From Escherichia phage P1723: DNA of 40,282 bases. A program made the position numbers and the translations under genes. The DNA lies in the sequence record MT465573. One strand, written 5' to 3'. The notes under the pieces were generated by a model. The model had not been told where the DNA came from. It did not search any database and saw nothing but the letters and a program-made list of their open reading frames with translations. Each line of letters starts with the position of its first letter. Position 1 is the first letter of the stretch. Of the stretch, positions 302-40,282 are shown piece after piece.

Positions 302-325
302 TATTAACCCACACTATAAGGAGCC
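302..325 (+). promoter_or_regulatory. Phage RNAP promoter variant (phiOL-like), ATTAACCCACACTATAAGGAG with A at +1
   Basis: Matches the 13-copy phage promoter consensus except TATAAGG instead of TATAGGG; T7 phiOL has the same A-for-G variant at the left end. Confidence 0.5.
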
Positions 326-374
326 AACCTATAAGCCCATACTTAAAGTATTTCATAAAGTTTATCTTTAAGTG

Positions 375-409
375 TTGACATCCTCATCGGTCTATGGCCT
401 AATAGCAAC
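375..409 (+). promoter_or_regulatory. Candidate host sigma70 promoter (TTGACA -35, weak -10)
   Basis: Perfect TTGACA at 375-380; -10 region (CCTAAT/CTAATA) is poor. Confidence 0.3.
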
Positions 410-3723: not shown

Positions 3724-6372
3724 ATGAGCAACGTAATTAATCCGGCAGTGAATGACTTTTCTGATATCAAACACGCTATCGAACCGTTCAACGTATTGGC
3801 AGACCATTACGGCGAACATCTGGCGGCTGTTCAACTTGAGTTAGAGCACGAGGCATACACGGAAGGTGAGAAGCGTTTCCATAAGCAGTTACAGCGTCAG
3901 ATTGAGGCTGGCGAGTTTGCAGATAACGCAGCGGCTAAAGGTGTAGTTCAAACGTTAATCCCTCGGTTGTCTGCTCGTTTCACCGAGTGGCACGAAGAGA
4001 TGCGCGTGAAGAAAGGACGTAAGCACGTAGCGACAAAGACCACAGCGGCAATCAACGCCGACAACTGTGCGGCAATCGTGGTCAAGCAGACACTGGCACA
4101 GGTAGCCAAGCAGGAACTGGCATCAATGCAGAACGTAGCGTTCGCCATAGGTCGTGCAATCGAAGATGAGTTACGCTTCGGTCGTATCCGTGATGAGGAA
4201 GCCAAGTTCTTTAAGAAGTACGTAGAGGACGGGCTCAACAAGCGCAACGGCTTGCTCTACAAAAAGGCTTACATGCAGGTCGTAGAGAAACAGATGATTG
4301 AGCGCAAAGAGCTTAAATCCACGTGGGAGCACTGGACCACCGAGGAGCTGGAGCATACAGGTATCAAGATGCTTGAATTGCTTATTGAGTCTACAGGTCT
4401 CGTTGAGGTCGAGCGCATGAACGCCGGGAACGTTAAGTCAGACGGTCAGTTTGTCTTCTTGGCTGACGAATGGGTCGAGGCTATCAGTAAACGCGCTGGC
4501 GCACTGGCTGCAATCGCACCAATGTATCAACCTTGTGTAGTCCCTCCGAAACCTTGGACGTCCATCGAAGGTGGCGGCTATTGGGCGGCTGGTCGTAAGC
4601 CGATTCAGTTGATTCGTGTAGGCTCTCGTAAGGCTCTCATGCGCTACAACGATGTGTCTATGCCTGAGGTATATGAAGCGGTCAACATCGCTCAGAATAC
4701 AGCGTGGAAGATTAACACGAAGGTTCTGGCGGTCGTCAATCAGGTGGTCAACTGGAAGAACTGTCCGGTGGAGGATATCCCAGCGCTGGAGAGTAAAGAA
4801 CTCCCGGAGAAACCTGAGGATATCGACACGAACGAAGAGGCTCTCAAGAAGTGGAAGAAAGCTGCTGCCGCTGTGTATCGTCAAGACAAGGCACGTGTGT
4901 CTAAGCGCCTGTCCCTTGAGTTCGCTCTCGGTCAGGCCAATAAGTTTGCACAGTTTAAGGCAATCTGGTTCCCGTACAACCTAGACTGGCGAGGTCGAGT
5001 GTATGCTTGCCCGATGTTTAACCCACAGGGTAACGATATGACCAAAGGGCTCCTGACGTTCGCCACGGGTAAACCAATGGGCGACGATGGGATGTACTGG
5101 CTGAAGATTCATGGCGCTAACTGTGCAGGTGTCGATAAGGTTCCATTCCCTGAGCGCATCGACTTCATTGAGAGTCATCACGCAGACATCATGGCTTGCG
5201 CGGATGAACCTTTAGAGAACCTTTGGTGGGCTGAGCAGGATTCACCGTTCTGTTTCCTAGCGTTTTGCTTCGAGTACGCTGGTGCATTTCGTCACGGTAA
5301 GTCCTACGTGTCCTCGCTGCCTCTGGCGTTCGATGGGTCATGCTCTGGTATTCAGCACTTCTCCGCGATGCTTCGTGATGAGGTTGGTGGTCGTGCGGTT
5401 AACTTACTGCCTAGCGAGAAGGTTCAGGATATCTACCGTATCGTCTCCGACAAGGTTAACATCCGTCTTCAGGCTGACGTAATCGGTGGGACTGATAACG
5501 AGATTGAAGTAATCACAAACAAGACCACTGGTGAGATTACCGAGAAGCCTAAGCTGGGTACTCGCGAGCTGGCTGGTCAGTGGCTGGCCTTTGGGGTCAA
5601 CCGTGGGGTCACTAAACGTTCTGTCATGACGCTGGCGTATGGTTCCAAAGAGTATGGATTCCGTGACCAAGTACTGGAGGACACCATCCGCCCAGCTATT
5701 GACAACGGAAAGGGCCTCATGTTTACCCAGCCGAACCAAGCAGCAGGTTACATGGCGAAACTCATCTGGGAAGCTGTAAGTGTCACTGTGGTCGCAGCCG
5801 TAGATGCCATGAAGTGGCTTCAGAGTGCCGCTAAGCTGTTAGCCGCTGAGGTGAAGGATAAGGATGGGACAATCCTGCGAAACCGCTGTGCTGTACATTG
5901 GGTTACTCCTGACGGGTTCCCTGTGTGGCAGGAATACAAGAAGCCAGTCCAGAAGCGTCTCGACCTGATTTTCCTTGGGAAGATTCGCATGGCCCTGACC
6001 ATTAACACAACCAAAGATAGCGGGATTGATGCACACAAACAGGAGTCAGGGATTGCGCCTAACTTCGTGCACAGCATGGATGGTAGCCACCTTCGTCAGA
6101 CGGTCGTCCACGGTCACAATAAGTATGGCATCAAGTCGTTCGCGCTGATTCACGATAGCTTTGGTGCGGTAGCCGCAGACGCTCGCAACCTGTTTAACGC
6201 AGTGCGTGAGACCCTTGTGGAGACCTATGAGCAGCATGACGTAATCCAAGAGTTCTACGACCAGTTTTACGACCAGTTACACGAAAGCCAGCTTGAGAAG
6301 ATGCCAGCGATTCCAGCTAAAGGGTCTCTGAATCTTCAGGAAATCTTAAAGTCTGACTTTGCGTTCGCCTAA
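3724..6372 (+). CDS. 1: Single-subunit DNA-directed RNA polymerase, gene 1
   Basis: 882 aa, near-colinear with T3/T7 RNAP: PMFNPQGNDMTKGLLT, DGSCSGIQHFSAM, HDSFG, C-terminal FAFA; RBS GAGG. Confidence 0.98.
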   Translation: MSNVINPAVNDFSDIKHAIEPFNVLADHYGEHLAAVQLELEHEAYTEGEKRFHKQLQRQIEAGEFADNAAAKGVVQTLIPRLSARFTEWHEEMRVKKGRKHVATKTTAAINADNCAAIVVKQTLAQVAKQELASMQNVAFAIGRAIEDELRFGRIRDEEAKFFKKYVEDGLNKRNGLLYKKAYMQVVEKQMIERKELKSTWEHWTTEELEHTGIKMLELLIESTGLVEVERMNAGNVKSDGQFVFLADEWVEAISKRAGALAAIAPMYQPCVVPPKPWTSIEGGGYWAAGRKPIQLIRVGSRKALMRYNDVSMPEVYEAVNIAQNTAWKINTKVLAVVNQVVNWKNCPVEDIPALESKELPEKPEDIDTNEEALKKWKKAAAAVYRQDKARVSKRLSLEFALGQANKFAQFKAIWFPYNLDWRGRVYACPMFNPQGNDMTKGLLTFATGKPMGDDGMYWLKIHGANCAGVDKVPFPERIDFIESHHADIMACADEPLENLWWAEQDSPFCFLAFCFEYAGAFRHGKSYVSSLPLAFDGSCSGIQHFSAMLRDEVGGRAVNLLPSEKVQDIYRIVSDKVNIRLQADVIGGTDNEIEVITNKTTGEITEKPKLGTRELAGQWLAFGVNRGVTKRSVMTLAYGSKEYGFRDQVLEDTIRPAIDNGKGLMFTQPNQAAGYMAKLIWEAVSVTVVAAVDAMKWLQSAAKLLAAEVKDKDGTILRNRCAVHWVTPDGFPVWQEYKKPVQKRLDLIFLGKIRMALTINTTKDSGIDAHKQESGIAPNFVHSMDGSHLRQTVVHGHNKYGIKSFALIHDSFGAVAADARNLFNAVRETLVETYEQHDVIQEFYDQFYDQLHESQLEKMPAIPAKGSLNLQEILKSDFAFA

Positions 6373-6416
6373 CAGCGTCGGTTAATACCTAAGGCCTTGA
6401 ATCTTCAGGGTCTTAT

Positions 6417-6439
6417 CATTAACCCACACTATAGGGAAC
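6417..6439 (+). promoter_or_regulatory. Phage RNAP promoter (phi1.05-like), ATTAACCCACACTATAGGGAAC
   Basis: Exact match to the -16..+1 core consensus; +1 G at 6434. Confidence 0.7.
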
Positions 6440-6533
6440 CAGATGGCCTCTCGCCTAGATGCGATGCCGGATGGTCCCAATACTTAAAGTTAAACATAAA
6501 GATACTTAAAGTTAACCAACGAGGTTTACAAAC

Positions 6534-6812
6534 ATGATTACTTCAATCTTTTCATACCTAAAGAAACTCTTTAAGATACCTAAAGTTACCCGCGTGCTGT
6601 TCTACGCTGTGAAGCCTGATGGTCGTCTCCACAAGACAGACTTTGTGTTGGGACTTGGGCCTTGCGGTAAGACAGTCAGTAAACTGAAGTTGTCCTCACG
6701 AGGTCCTCTACTGTATGTACTGACACAGACGCACACCGATGGGTCTCGTAAAGAGTTCATCTTTAAGAAGCATGATGTACTCGGTCGCATAGTTATTGAG
6801 ACCACCCGCTAA
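6534..6812 (+). CDS. Hypothetical protein (gene 1.05 position, 92 aa)
   Basis: ATG ORF following the phage promoter at 6417; no recognisable domain. Confidence 0.55.
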   Translation: MITSIFSYLKKLFKIPKVTRVLFYAVKPDGRLHKTDFVLGLGPCGKTVSKLKLSSRGPLLYVLTQTHTDGSRKEFIFKKHDVLGRIVIETTR

Positions 6813-6815
6813 GCA

Positions 6816-6838
6816 TATTAACCCACACTATAGGGAGA
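6816..6838 (+). promoter_or_regulatory. Phage RNAP promoter (phi1.1-like), ATTAACCCACACTATAGGGAGA
   Basis: Consensus match, +1 G at 6833, directly upstream of gene 1.1. Confidence 0.75.
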
Positions 6839-6877
6839 CAATCCGATCTCCCTTTCGAATACTTTAAGGAATACACT

Positions 6878-7066
6878 ATGAATACCAATTTCGAGCGCAT
6901 CACTCGCAAGGCTCCAACTGAAGGTTTCACTGGTCGTAAAGGCGCTAAGTTAAACAAGCGTGACCGTAAAGCTGACCGCTCTGGGAAGCGTGAAGTCTTC
7001 GACCACATTGCCGATAAGATGGAACGCAAGTACACTTCCTGTGGTAAACAATATCGCGAATACTAA
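6878..7066 (+). CDS. 1.1: Gene 1.1-like small basic protein (62 aa)
   Basis: MNTNFERITRK...GRKGAKLNKRDRK resembles T7 gp1.1; RBS AAGGAA. Confidence 0.65.
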   Translation: MNTNFERITRKAPTEGFTGRKGAKLNKRDRKADRSGKREVFDHIADKMERKYTSCGKQYREY

Positions 7067-14350: not shown

Positions 14351-14386
14351 ACTCAAGGTCATCGAAAGGTGGCCTTTATGATTATC
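14351..14386 (+). promoter_or_regulatory. RNase III site R4.7-like hairpin
   Basis: TGATAGGTAAACTCAAGGTCATCGAAAGGTGGCCTTTATGATTATC; near-identical motif recurs at 37283. Confidence 0.5.
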
Positions 14387-14411
14387 TATTAATTACAAAG
14401 GAGTACAAATT

Positions 14412-14789
14412 ATGCGTAACATTCATACTATCCGTGAAGAAATCGTTAAGCTGCAATCCGAACTGAAAGCGGCTGAGGCCGTGGAGTCACGTAAGAATGG
14501 TGCGGTTGCCGTTCTGCACAACCTTGGGTGGTCTTGGGATGGTAAGTCTTGGGTGAAACCTAAGTTCATCGCAGAAGCGTTTGACGCTAAGGTACACAAC
14601 CCGTTCCGTCCGGGTGATTGGGTAGAGGGCCGCACGTCTAAGGTTGCCTATCGTGTGTCTGAAGTTAAAGATGGTCGCATTCTGGTTCAACAGTTTGCCA
14701 TGCGCGTAGGTGCTCGACTGTTAACCCATAAGGCCATGACGTGGGTCAGTGCGGATAACTATCGCTCCATCCCATCGTCCTCACTGTAA
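14412..14789 (+). CDS. Hypothetical protein (gene 4.7 position, 125 aa)
   Basis: ATG with AAAGGAG RBS, immediately upstream of DNA polymerase as in T7. Confidence 0.65.
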   Translation: MRNIHTIREEIVKLQSELKAAEAVESRKNGAVAVLHNLGWSWDGKSWVKPKFIAEAFDAKVHNPFRPGDWVEGRTSKVAYRVSEVKDGRILVQQFAMRVGARLLTHKAMTWVSADNYRSIPSSSL

Positions 14790-18986: not shown

Positions 18987-19063
18987 TTTTCATGGGCGGC
19001 TTAGCTAAGTGCCTGTGGTCTGCAAGCTGGTTAGCGTACAAATGGCTGACCGAGCCTAAGTAA
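18947..19063 (+). CDS. Small hydrophobic ORF (38 aa; gene 6.3 position)
   Basis: ATG overlapping the gene 6 3' end; MEPTIILKYVSILIFMGGLAKCLWSASWLAYKWLTEPK; similar size and position to T7 gp6.3. Confidence 0.35.
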   Translation: MEPTIILKYVSILIFMGGLAKCLWSASWLAYKWLTEPK

Positions 19064-19083
19064 CTGATTATAGGGTCTTTGTG

Positions 19084-19106
19084 TATTAACCCACACTATA
19101 GGGAGA
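19084..19106 (+). promoter_or_regulatory. Phage RNAP promoter (phi6.5-like)
   Basis: TATTAACCCACACTATAGGGAGAG, +1 G at 19101. Confidence 0.8.
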
Positions 19107-19193
19107 GTACACTTAAAGACCCTATTGTAAGCTACTTAAAGTTCTATTTAAGAGTTTATGATTATGTATTACCAATAACTTAAGGAGGACTTT

Positions 19194-33500: not shown

Positions 33501-34486
33501 ACTACCTGCTTAGCGCTGCACGTCAGGGTCTCATTGGGAACCTTATTGAACACGCTGCGACGGGTAAGTCCTCCAAGTGGCTCAATGAGAACTTCCTGAA
33601 GTCTGCCAGCATCACGCCTGAGCAGTCCAAGGGTATCATTCAGTTCCTCAAAGACCACGCCAAGGTGGACGCTAACGGTAAGTGGACCTTCCCAGACCAA
33701 CACGCGATGAGCCTTGACCCTCGGGCTATGGACTTGTGGCGGATGGCTGATAAGGTTGCAGATGAGACCATGCTCCGACCATCCAAGATTAATGCACAGA
33801 ACGTTAAACAGTTAGGCCCGATTGTTGGCGCTGCGTTGCAGTTCAAAACGTTCGTCATTAAGTCCCTCAATGGTAAGACACTACGTACTTACTATCAGGC
33901 CACTCGCGATGGTCGTGCGATGGACGCTGCATTGTCCACAGGTATCTCCGGGATGCTTGCTGGTTCGTTCTACGTGATGCAGTCCCACATGAAAGCTGCT
34001 GGTCTCCCTGAGAACCAACGTGAGGCTTATCTCTTCAAGGCCTTAACGCCTGAGATGGTTGCCTACGCTGCGGCCTCCCGAAGCTCTATCACTGGTGCGC
34101 CGTTAGGTGTTGCAGATATGCTTCTGGGGCCAATTGGACTGACTCCAAGCCAGTACATGCGTACCACTATCAGTCCTAAGGATGCACCACAGCGAGACCC
34201 TAACAAGGCTTCCTCTGGTCGTTCCGGTACGGCTGAGCTGATGGGTGCTATTGGTCAACAGTTCCCTGTGGCTAACTACGTTGGCTCTACGGTGTCTCTC
34301 GGTCAGAACCTCTGGAACCTCGGAGGTGCCAATGGCCCTCGCGACTCCACGGAGTTCACTACAGGTGTCTATCAGAATATGAAGGAAGTTCTCCCGAACG
34401 ACCCGATTACTCAGAGACTACTTCTGGGTGCTTTCGAAGAGCACATCTACACAACCGAGCGACCTAAGCGTTCAGAGCGCTGGTAA
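30524..34486 (+). CDS. 16: Internal virion protein D with N-terminal lytic transglycosylase domain, gene 16
   Basis: 1320 aa; N-terminus GVSYDLLR...ES.FN..AKS.TGP.G.MQ.T is the transglycosylase motif region of T7 gp16; later segments (FGNPKAI, ILTGRARR, MDLWR.ADKVADE.MLRP) align with T7 gp16. Confidence 0.95.
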   Translation: MAKYDKTIPNQYDGLIRQAADANGVSYDLLRHLTFNESSFNANAKSPTGPKGIMQMTAGTGRAMGLNVFKEDNPADDRYNPEKAIPAAAKLLAGFVKKSNGDELRAALMYNVGEGPTGMPQIEAYDKQDYGSIGDEGRLYIRKLVGSAKSLRSEAIEKFGDFAKGIFEVEAPASKVTRGAPGPETASVNMDTSNLKYDQLNERTAANTWAVQNDQPEENYKPQGADKGLFYKTGDVAKVEVQNSALATMADAALGDNGYDVWSATITPSKWNSYTFTPDDIQKIRESGLRAEYAQSVLGSNAETLDEMIKLAKERQDRQDSVADAGMGAHLVGALAGAAVDPVSYIPIAGAASKGISLGRRMVTVGTQAGALNVASEVLRVGVGGGHADYMMAAGGGLLFGAGLTGVLHRANPREAESVLAATARAESRDAAMRGLPDNSAVSTEGLDFKTSPNGSQYATLDSGEVVLPDGQVLSTSNPLNPNSASQFASVDPEVTKGSMGVRMGSMTDISLHLSRSADDEVRGVAYDLLRSTTGYVKGGSGKSGTVASDVAERLHYTDTSDLTAIEQFTRDAIKDPEWTMGANRGDALARETVVRRAVEAQEDGIGVSKLTKGESKLRDEIFRFTTSKEDAMSNPAMFGNPKAIPVMNKTKLSGKYFPVAYVPEKVAAFRNVFGNSVEDAQGAMQRHFLADYASNPNTKSVVDEMVAAKNGLDSPAAVTPEMVEKWANDKAFGIVNGEFTTNLALDDIASASNSMNLGKNNFLESRHGFSMGFKSQLPDGQMFSLNDLRSFDANKLLRNYARRTNGDIAIHSTGQTTQDLLDKITAIRERAKSDPSGKLKQDANALEDTVKLLTGRARRDPNGAVDMAMGVLKDLSFVAKNAYMGLLNLTEIGGMIAKGNVRALFHGIPVVRDMMRSTKAVSGTDLQKLEYGLMGREVDNMIRPQRADLIQSLRDNSGMGSFGANALGSLKFGTQEIAAAWPMSKLLQGTTNYLLSAARQGLIGNLIEHAATGKSSKWLNENFLKSASITPEQSKGIIQFLKDHAKVDANGKWTFPDQHAMSLDPRAMDLWRMADKVADETMLRPSKINAQNVKQLGPIVGAALQFKTFVIKSLNGKTLRTYYQATRDGRAMDAALSTGISGMLAGSFYVMQSHMKAAGLPENQREAYLFKALTPEMVAYAAASRSSITGAPLGVADMLLGPIGLTPSQYMRTTISPKDAPQRDPNKASSGRSGTAELMGAIGQQFPVANYVGSTVSLGQNLWNLGGANGPRDSTEFTTGVYQNMKEVLPNDPITQRLLLGAFEEHIYTTERPKRSERW

Positions 34487-34487
34487 T

Positions 34488-34510
34488 CATTAACCCACAC
34501 TATAGGGAGA
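34488..34510 (+). promoter_or_regulatory. Phage RNAP promoter (phi17-like), copy 1
   Basis: TCATTAACCCACACTATAGGGAGAGG, +1 at 34505. Confidence 0.8.
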
Positions 34511-34550
34511 GGCAATCACGTCCTCCCTCTAGTTTTCATAAGGAGGCCAC

Positions 34551-34793
34551 ATGGCAAACGTCATTAAGACAGTTTATACGTACCCATTAGATGGCACCAC
34601 GACTGACTTTGCGATTCCCTTTGAGTACCTGTCACGTAAGTTCGTGGTGGTAACGCTCATTGGTCAAGACCGTAAAGAGCTGGTTGTTGTGACCGATTAT
34701 CGCTTCGCTACCCGCAACCTTATCTCTACGACTAAGGCATGGGGACCAGCCGATAACTATCAACAGATTGAGCTACACAACCGAGCGACCTAA
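34551..34793 (+). CDS. Truncated duplicate of the tail fiber N-terminus (gp17 residues 1-74 plus 6 aa), created by the tandem duplication
   Basis: Identical to the first 74 codons of gene 17, then runs through the duplication junction into LHNRAT and a TAA; has its own promoter and AAGGAGG RBS. Confidence 0.6.
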   Translation: MANVIKTVYTYPLDGTTTDFAIPFEYLSRKFVVVTLIGQDRKELVVVTDYRFATRNLISTTKAWGPADNYQQIELHNRAT

Positions 34794-34813
34794 GCGTTCA
34801 GAGCGCTGGTAAT

Positions 34814-34836
34814 CATTAACCCACACTATAGGGAGA
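34814..34836 (+). promoter_or_regulatory. Phage RNAP promoter (phi17-like), copy 2
   Basis: Identical to copy 1; +1 at 34831. Confidence 0.8.
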
Positions 34837-34876
34837 GGCAATCACGTCCTCCCTCTAGTTTTCATAAGGAGGCCAC

Positions 34877-36754
34877 ATGGCAAACGTCATTAAGACAGTT
34901 TATACGTACCCATTAGATGGCACCACGACTGACTTTGCGATTCCCTTTGAGTACCTGTCACGTAAGTTCGTGGTGGTAACGCTCATTGGTCAAGACCGTA
35001 AAGAGCTGGTTGTTGTGACCGATTATCGCTTCGCTACCCGCAACCTTATCTCTACGACTAAGGCATGGGGACCAGCCGATAACTATCAACAGATTGAGAT
35101 TCGTCGATACACTTCTGCAAGTGAACGTCTGGTTGACTTCAGTGATGGTTCCATCCTGCGAGCTACCGACCTTAACGTATCTCAGATTCAGACCCTGCAC
35201 GTTGCTGAAGAAGCGCGAGACCTGACCGCTGATACCATTGGCGTTAACAACGATGGCAACCTTGATGGTCGTGGTCGTCGTATCGTTAACGTGGCAGATG
35301 GTGTGGACGCTGGTGACGTTGTTACCGTAGGCCAGATGAACCGTTGGTCTGGTAGTGCTGCCGACAGCGCCAATAAAGCCAAGGTGTCCGAGACCAACGC
35401 CAAGACCTCTGAGACAAACTCAAAGGCTTCCGAGCTGTTAGCCCAGAAGTGGGCTGAGAACCCTAAAGGAACACCTGTGGTCTCCAGTCAGTATTCCGCT
35501 AAGCATTGGGCGTTGACCTCTGAGGATAGCGCTAATGCGTCTGCAACCTCTGCGGGTAACTCTCAGGCACAAGTAGCGAACGCTAAGACACAGGCTGACC
35601 GTGCTGGTGGTTACGCCAATGACGCTATGGGTTACCGCGATGCAGCCAACACGTCTGCTCAACAGGCCGCTGTATCTGAGGGCAACGCTGCGACATCTGC
35701 AAGTAACGCAAAGACTGAATCCGATAAGCTAATTCAGTTTAACACTCTGGTTGACCGGATTAACGGAGTGGCTGTACGTCAGGTTGGTGAGTTTGAGGTC
35801 CACAACTCTCGTACTTACGCTAAGCCGGGTACAGTGTATGGGGATGGTCAACTGCTGAACCGCAACCAGTTCCCTGCACTAGTAGCTGAGTTACTGGCAG
35901 GACACCTCCCGGTTGTCTCTGACTCCGAATGGCTGGCTGACCCCGGTAAACGTGGTTGCTATACCCTAGGTAACGGTACGACCACTTTCCGTGTACCAGA
36001 CCTCAACGGTGTCTATGCGGGTTCCATTAAGGCTCCTGTGTTCCGTGGTGACGCTGGGTTTACTGTAGGTGATGTTCAGAAGTCAGCTCTACCAAACATT
36101 GAGGGTCTGATTGCACTTGCCGATAATGAGCTGGCCTCCAGTGCCTCTGGTGCATTCTACAACGCTGGGCGCTCCAACAAAGGTGCAACTAACGATACCG
36201 GCGGTGCTCAGTTAGGTTTCGACGCGTCACTGTGGAACGAAATCTACAAGAAGGACACCAACGAAGCCCGAATGAACTCCGTGGTAATCGTATGGGTCAT
36301 CCGTACTCACGGGGTGGTGAACAATCCGGGTTCTGTAGATGCCGCTGTGTTGTCTTCTCGTGTCGAGCAGGTTTATACCGAACTGCTTACACGTATGGTT
36401 GCTAATGAGAACCTCCAGAAGTCTGGACAGAAGTTCCTTCGCCGAGTGTTTAGCGACCGCACGTCTCAGGGGCAACTTTCGACTGGAAGAACAGTGACTT
36501 GCTCTGAGGATATTCTCAACAAGATGCTAGTAATTGGCGCACACACCGATAGCCAAAACCCAAACTCTCAGATATATCGTTGTAGCCCGTTCCTCCAGCC
36601 GAACACTGCTGACCGAATGCACCTCACTCTATCTAACTGGTCGTACACCTTAGAGTTCCCTGCGGCGAATCAAGTTAAACTAGTAGCGGCTACAGGTTCT
36701 GGAGTACAGGCAATCAACTATATTGACGTAGTGTGCGACTACCCACAAACGTAA
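34877..36754 (+). CDS. 17: Tail fiber protein, gene 17 (T7-like N-terminal domain, divergent distal region)
   Basis: 625 aa; residues 1-150 (MANVIKTV..FEYL.RKFVVVTLIG.DRK...DYRFATR...KAWGPAD, GSILRA.DLNV.QIQT.HVAEEARDLT.DTIGVNNDG.LD.RGRRIVN) match T7 gp17; distal part differs and contains a tail-collar-like motif. Confidence 0.95.
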   Translation: MANVIKTVYTYPLDGTTTDFAIPFEYLSRKFVVVTLIGQDRKELVVVTDYRFATRNLISTTKAWGPADNYQQIEIRRYTSASERLVDFSDGSILRATDLNVSQIQTLHVAEEARDLTADTIGVNNDGNLDGRGRRIVNVADGVDAGDVVTVGQMNRWSGSAADSANKAKVSETNAKTSETNSKASELLAQKWAENPKGTPVVSSQYSAKHWALTSEDSANASATSAGNSQAQVANAKTQADRAGGYANDAMGYRDAANTSAQQAAVSEGNAATSASNAKTESDKLIQFNTLVDRINGVAVRQVGEFEVHNSRTYAKPGTVYGDGQLLNRNQFPALVAELLAGHLPVVSDSEWLADPGKRGCYTLGNGTTTFRVPDLNGVYAGSIKAPVFRGDAGFTVGDVQKSALPNIEGLIALADNELASSASGAFYNAGRSNKGATNDTGGAQLGFDASLWNEIYKKDTNEARMNSVVIVWVIRTHGVVNNPGSVDAAVLSSRVEQVYTELLTRMVANENLQKSGQKFLRRVFSDRTSQGQLSTGRTVTCSEDILNKMLVIGAHTDSQNPNSQIYRCSPFLQPNTADRMHLTLSNWSYTLEFPAANQVKLVAATGSGVQAINYIDVVCDYPQT

Positions 36755-39676: not shown

Positions 39677-39699
39677 CATTAACCCACACTATAGGGAGA
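39677..39699 (+). promoter_or_regulatory. Phage RNAP promoter (phiOR-like) near the right end
   Basis: TTTGCATTAACCCACACTATAGGGAGAGGG, +1 at 39694; no substantial ORF downstream. Confidence 0.8.
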
Positions 39700-40092
39700 G
39701 GGTACTCAAAGACTACCTTAAGTTATCATTATAGTTATTCACCATAAGTATTCATTCAAGACCATTATGACCATTAACAGATTACTTAGAGTGTCCTTAT
39801 GAGAGGGTGGATATTATTATTATAATCACCCTATCCTAAAGATACTTAGAGGCACCTAGCTATCCTATAGTTATATCCTAAAGAGGTAAACGCTACGGTG
39901 TACTCAAATGGGTCTATAGGTGTTCCTGATATGATGATACACACTATCACATCACTCACACCTGACCACCTAAACGTTAACCACCCAAGGGTCTCTCATG
40001 GTCTCTTGTGGTCTACCTTTGGTTAGGCCGTACCCTTTGGTGATACCTTTGGAGGTCCCTTTAAGAATCCTACAGAAAAATCTGAGTGACTA

Positions 40093-40282
40093 TCTCAAAG
40101 ATACAACTCCCAAAGTTCCCCCATAGCCCTCTTTAAGTTCACCTTCGGTGGCCCTTCCCCTTTGGTTACTCTTTAAGTGACACCTTTGGTGGTTCGTTTG
40201 GTTCTCCTGAGGCGGTGTTGAGACCCTTTGGTGAGACATTAGGGAGACCATTTGGTGACATTTGGTTATGCCTCAGTCCCTA
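40093..40282. repeat. Putative terminal-repeat / genome-end region with CCTTTGGT-type short repeats
   Basis: TCTCAAAGATACAACTCCCAAAGTTCCCCCATAGCCCTCTTTAAG resembles the T3/T7 left-end sequence; CCTTTGGT/CCCTTTAAG repeats continue across the window end into positions 1-80. Confidence 0.35.

What the first reader, a model, noticed from the sequence alone, without database searches (positions are those of the whole stretch)
6440..6533. AT-rich ACTTAAAG repeats downstream of phage promoters as candidate replication origins
After the promoter at 6417 lies AATACTTAAAGTTAAACATAAAGATACTTAAAGTTAACC. Similar ACTTAAAG/CATAAAG-rich stretches follow the phiOL-like promoter (326-372), the phi6.5 promoter (19107-19190) and phiOR (39700-39800). 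In T7 the primary origin is an AT-rich region downstream of the phi1.1 promoters, with secondary origins at phiOL, phi6.5 and phiOR.
Basis: partly seen in the sequence, partly recalled or inferred. Interest (0 to 1): 0.4.

Follow-up and report, generated by a model that had tools for sequence, protein, structure and literature searches.

The report
T7-type replication origin, T3-like layout
The AT-rich repeat block just after the phage RNA polymerase gene sits where phages T7, T3 and phiYeO3-12 have their main replication origin, so it is most likely this phage's origin; the kind of element is already known and its function is untested here.

Summary
The window is a whole, circularly permuted genome of a T7-like phage (Studiervirinae, Foetvirus; 96.7% identical to Escherichia phage SRT7).

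The quoted sequence is real, at 6479-6517. ACTTAAAG occurs 15 times against 1.1 expected. All 7 plus-strand copies are non-coding, and 5 follow the phiOL-, phi1.05- and phi6.5-type promoters.

The finding's range is imprecise:
- 6440-6478 is a GC-rich 5' stem-loop.
- The AT-rich element is 38-39 bp (79% AT).
- A second copy (76% identical) lies at 6554-6591, inside the first codons of the next gene.

The next gene is a homologue of T3 gene 1.05. The T3 and phiYeO3-12 records annotate a rep_origin at exactly this promoter-to-gene-1.05 position.

Across 73 non-identical relatives, CTTTAAG-type heptamers are about 30 times denser in the 200 nt after gene 1 than in the flanks, and they are spaced 10-13 bp apart. 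The blocks after phiOL, phi1.05, phi6.5 and phiOR are among the six least stable 40-bp duplex segments of the genome, as in T7.

Best reading: a transcription-activated T7/T3-type origin. This rests on homology and is not demonstrated. Rival readings are an mRNA leader, and for other blocks an RNase III hairpin at phi6.5 or a role upstream of the first host-type promoter at phiOL. Verdict: a new member of a known kind, of low interest.

The parts
6417..6439 (+). Phage-RNAP promoter (-17..+6, +1 = G6434), phi1.05-type. Its initial transcribed sequence is GGGAAC, shared with the phi2.5- and phi4.3-type promoters; the late promoters have GGGAGA.
   Evidence: One of 13 matches to TTAACCCACACTATAGG. 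The downstream sequences of all promoters are compared. It lies 45 nt after the RNAP gene stop at 6372.
6434..6478 (+). GC-rich 5' stem-loop of the phi1.05 transcript (36% AT). It separates the promoter from the AT-rich block.
   Evidence: RNA fold (stem 6434-6478). Composition. Shorter equivalents with compensatory changes occur in Berlin-like relatives.
6479..6517 (.). AT-rich element A (79% AT). Three phased heptamers, CTTAAAG 6483, CATAAAG 6495 and CTTAAAG 6505, with spacing 12 and 10. It contains two copies of ATACTTAAAGTTAA 22 bp apart. Proposed easily melted core of the origin; it is also the gene 1.05 mRNA leader.
   Evidence: Fifth least stable 40-bp window in the genome (z = 4.09). 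Aligns with the leader part of the T3 annotated rep_origin.
6534..6812 (+). Gene 1.05 homologue (92 aa). A GAGG Shine-Dalgarno lies at 6523-6526.
   Evidence: BLASTP against T3 gp1.05: 42% identity, E 2e-19. PHROG families of unknown function match from residue 13-16 onward.
6554..6591 (.). Element B, a second copy of the 38-bp element (76% identical to A). Heptamers CCTAAAG 6557, CTTTAAG 6569 and CCTAAAG 6579, with spacing 12 and 10. It lies in codons 7-20 of gene 1.05.
   Evidence: Repeat family D1. Spacing. The T3 and phiYeO3-12 rep_origin annotations likewise run into the first 42-83 nt of gene 1.05, where CTTTAAG copies lie.
6472..6476 (+). TGGTC, a T7-primase-type recognition pentamer on the plus strand at the left edge of element A. 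A second one lies at 6620-6624. These are possible start sites for leftward synthesis.
   Evidence: Read directly from the sequence. Both lie at the ends of a 17-nt imperfect direct repeat (family D2). Their number is not above chance, so this is weak evidence.
302..378 (+). phiOL-type promoter (+1 = A319) followed by an AT-rich block at 339-378. The block contains the perfect 13-bp palindrome ATACTTAAAGTAT, then CATAAAG and CTTTAAG at 12-bp steps. It abuts a TTGACA hexamer at 375-380.
   Evidence: Sixth least stable 40-bp window. The architecture is shared with T7, T3 and BA14.
19057..19192 (+). phi6.5-type promoter (19084-19106) in the loop of an 81-nt hairpin (19057-19138), followed by a second hairpin and the gene 6.5 ribosome-binding site. 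ACTTAAAG lies at 19111 and 19134. The least stable 40-bp window of the genome is 19132-19171.
   Evidence: (fold z = -5.15). T3 annotates RNase III site R6.5 around its phi6.5 promoter.
39677..39890 (+). phiOR-type promoter (39677-39699) followed by about 190 bp of 67% AT DNA. It holds no exact ACTTAAAG. CCTAAAG lies at 39835 and 39877, and a hairpin-forming GGGTG...CACCC lies at about 39805-39833.
   Evidence: Windows 39811-39850 and 39717-39756 rank 2 and 4 for low duplex stability.

Best explanation
The interval from the promoter at 6417 through about 6591 is this phage's counterpart of the primary replication origin of T3 and T7. It comprises the promoter, a 5' stem-loop, AT-rich element A, the start of gene 1.05 and element B.

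Proposed mechanism, by analogy with T7:
1. The phage RNA polymerase starts at G6434 and transcribes rightward through the AT-rich, easily melted blocks.
2. The transcription bubble and short RNA:DNA hybrid open the duplex there.
3. The phage DNA polymerase, helped by the gp4 helicase-primase, takes over the 3' end of the transcript as the first rightward primer.
4. gp4 loads on the displaced strand and primes leftward synthesis at nearby primase sites, giving bidirectional replication.

Shown here: the anatomy, the synteny, the homology to annotated origins, the low duplex stability, the family-wide conservation of the heptamers, and the presence of a T7-type replisome.

Inferred: that replication starts here, and that the heptamers rather than plain AT-richness matter.

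The same DNA doubles as the leader and first codons of gene 1.05. The similar blocks after phiOL, phi6.5 and phiOR could act as back-up origins, but each has another plausible job.
For: **Synteny and annotation**
- The promoter is 45 nt after the RNAP gene stop.
- The next ORF is a gene 1.05 homologue.
- T3 annotates 'primary origin of DNA replication' at 5682-5758. phiYeO3-12 annotates rep_origin at 5995-6136. Both cover the phi1.05 leader plus the first codons of gene 1.05, and both are bounded by CTTTAAG copies.

**Sequence**
- The window aligns with T3 over the heptamers.

**Family-wide conservation**
- In 73 non-identical loci, CTTTAAG is 4.86 per kb in the 200 nt after gene 1 against 0.16 per kb elsewhere.
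- Copies are spaced 10-13 bp apart.
- Within the Berlin-like and T7-like groups most heptamers are invariant, with isolated single-base variants, while the spacers, copy number and even the downstream gene vary.

**Physical property**
- 6477-6516 is the fifth least stable 40-bp window of 40 kb. The equivalent block ranks 2 in T7, 2 in T3 and 1 in BA14.

**Machinery**
- RNAP, gp4-type primase-helicase, T7-type DNA polymerase and a gp2.5-type SSB are all encoded.

**Literature**
- T7 replication starts at phi1.1A/B. Every T7 origin needs a T7 promoter, and secondary origins include phiOR and phi6.5 (PMC8373140).
- There is an A/T-rich cluster in the T7 origin (PMC12839067).
- The T7 origin holds a single primase site (PMC2910064).
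- The helicase helps the DNA polymerase acquire the RNA primer from T7 RNAP (PMC5997990).
Against: - There is no functional evidence for this phage or for SRT7.
- The T3 and phiYeO3-12 annotations may themselves rest partly on analogy with T7.
- Element A is short: 39 bp, against a stated 61-bp cluster in T7. It lies +45 to +84 from the start site, behind a 45-nt hairpin.
- There is only one promoter, not two.
- GC skew shows no switch at 6.5 kb.
- Low duplex stability is shared by ordinary ribosome-binding regions.
- ACTTWAAG also sits directly in front of Shine-Dalgarno sequences at 6859, 13758 and 21699. The motif could therefore be a feature of the mRNA rather than of the DNA.
- Only one close relative exists, so there is no phylogenetic footprint within the genus.
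Confidence: 0.6

Rival explanations
1. The block is only an mRNA feature. On this view it is an A/U-rich, unstructured leader (a ribosome or S1 landing pad, or an 'ACUUWAAG' box typical of T7-group translation initiation regions) that promotes translation of gene 1.05, and it has no role in replication.
For: - Element A ends 5 nt before the GAGG Shine-Dalgarno of gene 1.05.
- ACTTWAAG directly precedes Shine-Dalgarno sequences of other genes at 6859, 13758, 19176 and 21699.
- In relatives, the last heptamer overlaps the Shine-Dalgarno, as in CTTTAAGAGG.
- The 8-mers show a plus-strand (sense) bias in T7, T3 and BA14.
- The AT-rich RNA is predicted to be unstructured.
Against: - The same heptamers occur after phiOL, where no ORF follows, in four genera. 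They also occur in the terminal repeat.
- The block is kept in front of different downstream genes.
- The T7 'epsilon' sequence TTAACTTTA is present here only on the minus strand. The mRNA therefore carries its complement and cannot pair with 16S rRNA in the way proposed for epsilon.
- Element B lies inside the coding region.
- This reading is not exclusive of origin function.
Confidence: 0.2
2. The phased ATACYTWAAG units are binding sites for a sequence-specific DNA-binding protein, of phage or host origin. On this view they are iteron-like and mark origin- or end-related sites.
For: - There are four 10-mers in two 22-bp tandem pairs (6480, 6502 | 6554, 6576), against 0.13 expected in the whole genome.
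- Family-wide spacing is 10-13 bp, which keeps copies on roughly one face of the helix.
- The unit is quasi-palindromic: ACTT-W-AAGT, with a perfect 13-bp palindrome at 339-351.
- Most heptamers are invariant while the spacers vary.
Against: - As far as I know, no origin-binding initiator has been described for T7-group phages; the RNA polymerase fills that role.
- No candidate protein was identified. The neighbouring small ORFs match only PHROG families of unknown function.
- The right-hand flank of the unit is poorly conserved.
- Phasing would equally produce intrinsic curvature with no protein involved.
Confidence: 0.08
3. The three other blocks are not origins but serve local functions:
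- The phi6.5 copies are the 3' arm of an RNase III processing hairpin.
- The phiOL block is the AT-rich region upstream of the first host-type early promoter, possibly aiding host-RNAP binding or genome entry.
- The phiOR region serves concatemer processing or packaging.
For: - An 81-nt hairpin carries phi6.5 in its loop (z = -5.15). It is homologous to the region where T3 annotates R6.5.
- The phiOL block ends at a conserved AAGTrTTGAC in four genera. This is the annotated -35 of promoter A1 in T3 and lies just upstream of the annotated A1 start in T7.
- The phiOR region lacks the exact motif and lies next to the terminal-repeat region.
Against: - phiOR and phi6.5 are named as secondary origins of T7 (PMC8373140).
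- These blocks are the least stable duplex segments in both this phage and T7.
- The sigma-70 scan found no canonical promoter at 375.
- Dual use is possible.
Confidence: 0.5

Closest known systems
Primary origin of phage T3 and phiYeO3-12 (Teetrevirus): phi1.05 promoter, AT-rich leader and start of gene 1.05
   Same: - Same gene order: gene 1, a single phi1.05 promoter, a 5' stem-loop, an AT-rich heptamer block, then gene 1.05 (42% identical protein), followed by phi1.1.
- The repeat block continues into the first codons of gene 1.05.
- The AT content is similar: 77% in T3, and 79% and 68% in elements A and B here.
- Sources.
   Different: - The stem-loop is 45 nt, against about 22 nt in T3.
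- The heptamers are mostly CTTAAAG, CCTAAAG or CATAAAG rather than CTTTAAG or CTTAAG.
- The block is organised as two copies of a 38-bp element.
- The promoter specificity differs: TTAACCCACACTATAGG.
Primary origin of phage T7: phi1.1A and phi1.1B plus an A/T-rich cluster stated to be 61 bp
   Same: - A phage promoter directly after gene 1, firing into one of the least stable duplex segments of the genome.
- CTTAAG- and CTTTAAG-type heptamers at about 11-bp spacing.
- A T7-type replisome is encoded.
- T7's 11-mer TTAACTTTAAG is present here twice, as its reverse complement.
   Different: - One promoter, not two.
- There is no RNase III site between promoters.
- The downstream gene is 1.05, not 1.1.
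- The AT core is shorter.
- No primase pentamer lies inside the AT block; TGGTC flanks it instead.
T7 secondary origins (phiOR, phi6.5) and the phiOL region
   Same: The same four syntenic promoters are followed by the least stable DNA in both genomes. The phiOL and phi6.5 regions can be aligned across four genera, including an invariant ACTTWAAG.
   Different: The phiOR block here lacks the exact motif. Evidence of function exists only for T7, and only for phiOR and phi6.5 in the text I could read.

Membership tests
T7/T3-type transcription-activated replication origin | A phage-RNAP promoter immediately upstream, firing into the element | tested here: met
   Promoter at 6417-6439, +1 at 6434, plus strand.
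T7/T3-type transcription-activated replication origin | An AT-rich block of low duplex stability within about 100 bp downstream of the start site | tested here: met
   6479-6517 is 79% AT. It is the fifth least stable 40-bp window (z = 4.09). The equivalent block ranks 1-2 in BA14, T3 and T7.
T7/T3-type transcription-activated replication origin | Syntenic position directly after gene 1 (RNAP) and before gene 1.05 or 1.1 | tested here: met
   The RNAP gene ends at 6372. The next ORF is a gene 1.05 homologue. The T3 and phiYeO3-12 rep_origin annotations are at the same place.
T7/T3-type transcription-activated replication origin | Sequence relationship to an annotated or mapped origin | tested here: inconclusive
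   The alignment with T3 conserves the heptamers and little else. The heptamer block is conserved across 73 loci. The sequences are too short and too AT-rich for a statistical claim of homology.
T7/T3-type transcription-activated replication origin | A primase recognition site (G/T)(G/T)GTC in or beside the AT block | tested here: inconclusive
   TGGTC lies at 6472-6476 and 6620-6624 on the plus strand, with none inside element A. The number is not above chance.
T7/T3-type transcription-activated replication origin | The phage encodes the T7-type initiation and replisome set (RNAP, gp4, gp5, gp2.5) | tested here: met
   PHROG matches: RNA polymerase; primase/helicase, DNA polymerase and gp2.5-like SSB.
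T7/T3-type transcription-activated replication origin | Replication actually initiates there and depends on the promoter and AT block | not testable with these tools
   This needs marker-frequency, junction-mapping or plasmid origin assays. GC skew was uninformative.
Iteron-type origin (initiator-bound direct repeats) | Three or more direct repeats in helical phase | tested here: met
   ATACYTWAAG at 6480, 6502, 6554 and 6576, with heptamer spacing 12 and 10 | 12 and 10.
Iteron-type origin (initiator-bound direct repeats) | A dedicated initiator protein that binds the repeats | not tested
   No candidate was found. The adjacent small ORFs match only families of unknown function. As far as I know, none is described for the T7 group.
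'Epsilon' translational enhancer (T7 gene 10 leader, UUAACUUUA pairing with 16S rRNA) | UUAACUUUA present in the mRNA sense upstream of the Shine-Dalgarno | tested here: not met
   TTAACTTTA occurs only on the minus strand, at 6485-6493, 6507-6515 and 19453. The transcript carries its complement.
RNase III processing site of T7-group phages | A long, interrupted hairpin in the transcript | tested here: not met
   This applies to 6479-6517, where the AT block is predicted to be essentially unstructured. The phi6.5 block does meet the feature: a hairpin at 19057-19138 with z = -5.15, homologous to the T3 R6.5 region.

The most novel reading that the evidence does not exclude
The conserved, helically phased ACTT-W-AAG heptamers may be specific recognition sites rather than mere AT-rich filler. 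They form ATACYTWAAG units in two 38-bp copies here, and they recur after phiOL and phi6.5 and in the terminal-repeat region across Studiervirinae. An as yet unidentified factor would read them: a phage or host DNA-binding protein, or an oriented signal for the RNAP-to-DNA-polymerase hand-off. That would add a sequence-specific component to an origin type thought to need only a promoter and AT-rich DNA.
Probability: 0.1. Interest if true: 0.55.

Novelty: new member of a known kind. Interest (0 to 1): 0.2.

Why it matters
If correct, this locates the probable primary origin of the Foetvirus genus (SRT7-like coliphages) and shows that it follows the T3 layout rather than the T7 layout. That is useful for annotation and for building origin or orthogonal-replication plasmids with a new promoter specificity.

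The family-wide picture may be of more general value. Heptamers that are nearly invariant and phased at 10-13 bp, with variable spacers and copy number, are a cheap and testable hint that T7-group origins contain more sequence information than 'promoter plus AT-rich DNA'.

Tried and rejected
- **GC and AT skew.** Per-kb and cumulative skew in the window, T7, T3 and BA14 show no inflection at the putative origin in the window. The test is uninformative because transcription in a single direction dominates.
- **Purine bias of the RNA-like strand**, as an argument for R-loop stability. It is inconsistent across blocks and phages, so I dropped it.
- **Rfam**, at gathering and at permissive thresholds. 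No known RNA family matches in the window or in 6300-6700.
- **Sigma-70 and terminator scans** at 200-1200 and 6300-6900. The host-promoter reading of the TTGACA at 375 therefore rests on alignment with T7, T3 and BA14 only.
- **Search for closer relatives**, to footprint the block. Only SRT7 was found in the phage collection and in IMG/VR, and none in the metagenome scan.
- **'The motif is simply flipped relative to T7.'** This is partly undermined. The leading AC keeps the same polarity in all lineages (ACTT-T-AAG against ACTT-A-AAG). However, the 11-mer TTAACTTTAAG of T7 and BA14 matches the window only as a reverse complement. The data cannot decide between the two descriptions.
- **Original origin papers.** Saito 1980 and Romano 1981 are not held in the library. 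Statements on T7 origin anatomy rest on later papers that cite them and on my own knowledge.

Full report
**What the window is**

The 40,282-bp window is a complete genome of a T7-like phage. The segment 6000-7200 is 96.7% identical to Escherichia phage SRT7 (Autographiviridae, Studiervirinae, Foetvirus), and no other phage record matches at megablast level.

It carries 13 copies of one phage-RNAP promoter, TTAACCCACACTATAGG, all on the plus strand. Their order mirrors T7 and T3: phiOL (+1 at 319), one promoter right after gene 1 (+1 at 6434), then 6833, 8595, 9734, 13740, 19101 (phi6.5), 21633, 22663, 27097, 34505, 34831 and 39694 (phiOR). RNAP, gp4-type primase-helicase, T7-type DNA polymerase and a gp2.5-type SSB are all encoded.

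The window is circularly permuted. Its end joined to its start reads CCCTA|TCTGTT, which is the T7 concatemer-junction signal, and the ends carry no terminal repeat.

**Check of the observation**

The quoted 39-mer lies at 6479-6517. ACTTAAAG occurs 15 times against 1.12 expected, and no shuffle out of 100 reaches 15.

All seven plus-strand copies are non-coding (262, 341, 6482, 6504, 19111, 19134, 21699), although only about 10% of the genome is non-coding. The longer unit ATACYTWAAG occurs 9 times against 0.13 expected, with four copies in 6480-6585.

Three corrections are needed:
- 6440-6478 is a GC-rich 5' stem-loop (36% AT), not AT-rich DNA.
- A second copy of the 38-bp element lies at 6554-6591, 76% identical to 6480-6517, with the same heptamer spacing of 12 and 10. 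It sits outside the given range, inside codons 7-20 of the next gene.
- The phiOR stretch 39700-39800 is AT-rich but has no ACTTAAAG or CATAAAG. It has only near-variants, and CCTAAAG appears at 39835 and 39877.

**What it corresponds to**

The ORF at 6534-6812 is a homologue of T3 gene 1.05 (42% identity, E 2e-19). The layout is therefore T3-like: gene 1, then phi1.05, then a leader, then gene 1.05, then phi1.1 (6818).

The T3 RefSeq record annotates 'primary origin of DNA replication' at 5682-5758. That feature begins 18 nt after the end of the phi1.05 promoter feature and ends 42 nt into gene 1.05. It runs from the first CTTTAAG after the stem-loop through the last, ending two bases past it. 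The phiYeO3-12 record annotates rep_origin at 5995-6136 at the same place. The window aligns with T3 over the heptamers.

In T7 the primary origins are phi1.1A and phi1.1B, and every T7 origin needs a T7 promoter (PMC8373140). The T7 origin contains an A/T-rich cluster, stated to be 61 bp, with one primase site (PMC12839067; PMC2910064).

**Family-wide evidence**

I fetched 78 loci encoding the C-terminus of related RNAPs, each with the DNA downstream.

In the T7-, T3-, Berlin/BA14-like and several unnamed groups, the DNA after gene 1 has the same plan: a promoter, a short 5' stem-loop, then 2-5 copies of CTTTAAG, CTTAAG or CTTAAAG. Groups with a gene directly after gene 1 (L042-L060), and GC-rich relatives, lack this block.

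Over 73 non-identical loci, CTTTAAG reaches 4.86 per kb in the 200 nt after gene 1, against 0.16 per kb in the flanks. Adjacent copies are 10-13 bp apart in 70 of 74 intervals.

Within the Berlin-like and T7-like groups most heptamers are invariant, with isolated single-base variants. The spacers, the copy number, the stem-loop (with compensatory changes) and even the identity of the downstream gene vary. That pattern indicates selection on the heptamers and on their position, not on a particular gene's leader.

**Physical property**

I computed nearest-neighbour duplex stability in 40-bp windows, with parameters entered by me.

| Rank in the window genome | 40-bp window | Location |
|---|---|---|
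| 1 | 19132-19171 | after phi6.5 |
| 2 | 39811-39850 | after phiOR |
| 3 | 14374-14413 | a ribosome-binding region |
| 4 | 39717-39756 | after phiOR |
| 5 | 6477-6516 | after phi1.05 |
| 6 | 339-378 | after phiOL |

- T7 gives phiOL, phi1.1B, phi6.5, phi10 and phiOR as ranks 1-5.
- T3 gives phiOL 1, phi1.05 2 and phi6.5 6.
- BA14 gives phi1.05 1, phi6.5 2 and phiOL 6.

However, ordinary ribosome-binding regions are only slightly more stable.

**Mechanism proposed**

By analogy with T7, RNAP starting at 6434 opens the AT-rich blocks. The DNA polymerase, aided by the gp4 helicase, acquires the transcript as the rightward primer (PMC5997990). gp4 then primes leftward synthesis at nearby sites; TGGTC lies at 6472 and 6620, which is not above chance.

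All of this is inference for this phage. GC skew is uninformative. Only one close relative exists, so the block cannot be footprinted within the genus.

**Rival readings**

1. *mRNA leader or translation.* Element A ends 5 nt before the Shine-Dalgarno, and ACTTWAAG precedes several other Shine-Dalgarno sequences. Against this:
   - The motif also follows phiOL, where no ORF follows, in four genera.
   - The block is kept in front of different genes.
   - T7's 'epsilon' sequence TTAACTTTA is present only on the minus strand here.
2. *Protein-binding iterons.* The phasing, the quasi-palindromy and the near-invariance of the heptamers allow this reading, but no binding protein is known or was found.
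3. *Local functions of the other blocks.*
   - The phi6.5 copies lie in the 3' arm of an 81-nt hairpin with the promoter in its loop (z = -5.15). The hairpin is homologous to the region of T3's annotated RNase III site R6.5.
   - The phiOL block ends at a conserved AAGTrTTGAC, the -35 of the first host-type promoter in T7 and T3.
   - The phiOR region adjoins the terminal-repeat region.

**Verdict**

It is weaker for the three 'secondary' sites.

This is a new member of a known kind. The one mildly new point is that phased, nearly invariant ACTT-W-AAG heptamers mark this position across Studiervirinae. That makes testable the question of whether these origins need more than a promoter plus AT-rich DNA.

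Noticed in passing
window 34447-35098: A perfect 326-bp tandem duplication (2.0 copies, 100% identical). It covers the phi17-type promoter, its leader and the first 73 codons of the tail-fibre gene, giving an 80-aa ORF (34551-34793) ahead of the full gene (34877-36754). SRT7 has a single copy. It could be a real duplication or an assembly artefact.
   Followed up: partly
window 40092-40282 joined to 1-12: The window is circularly permuted. Its end plus its start reads CAGTCCCTA|TCTGTTGG, the T7 concatemer-junction signal CCCTATCTGTT. A T7-like physical left end (TCTCAAAGATAC...CCCAAAGTTCCCCCATAG) lies at about 40092. The terminal repeat is present only once.
   Followed up: partly
window 19057-19138: The phi6.5-type promoter sits in the loop of an 81-nt hairpin (fold z = -5.15). 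The hairpin is homologous to the region where T3 annotates RNase III site R6.5. The invariant ACTTWAAG at its base is conserved in T7, T3, BA14 and this phage.
   Followed up: yes
window 6485-6493 and 6507-6515 (minus strand): The T7 gene 10 'epsilon' sequence TTAACTTTA occurs in this genome only on the minus strand, and two of its three copies are inside the AT-rich element. The transcript therefore carries the complement, UAAAGUUAA.
   Followed up: yes
L085, L087, L088, L090 (IMGVR_UViG_645948545_000001, 38,497 bp): A second, apparently distant phage genome uses the identical promoter core TTAACCCACACTATAGGGA. It also shows CTTTAAG and CTTAAAG runs downstream of its promoters. It was not recovered by the RNAP-based locus search.
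   Followed up: partly
window 39990-40260: Dense CCTTTGG(T)-type short repeats with a period of about 10-12 fill the terminal-repeat region. They take the place of T7's CCTAAAG and CCTTGGG repeats there.
   Followed up: no
window 6390-6415: A hairpin (AAGGCCTTGAATCTTCAGGGTCTT) lies between the RNAP stop codon and the phi1.05 promoter. Its function was not examined.
   Followed up: no
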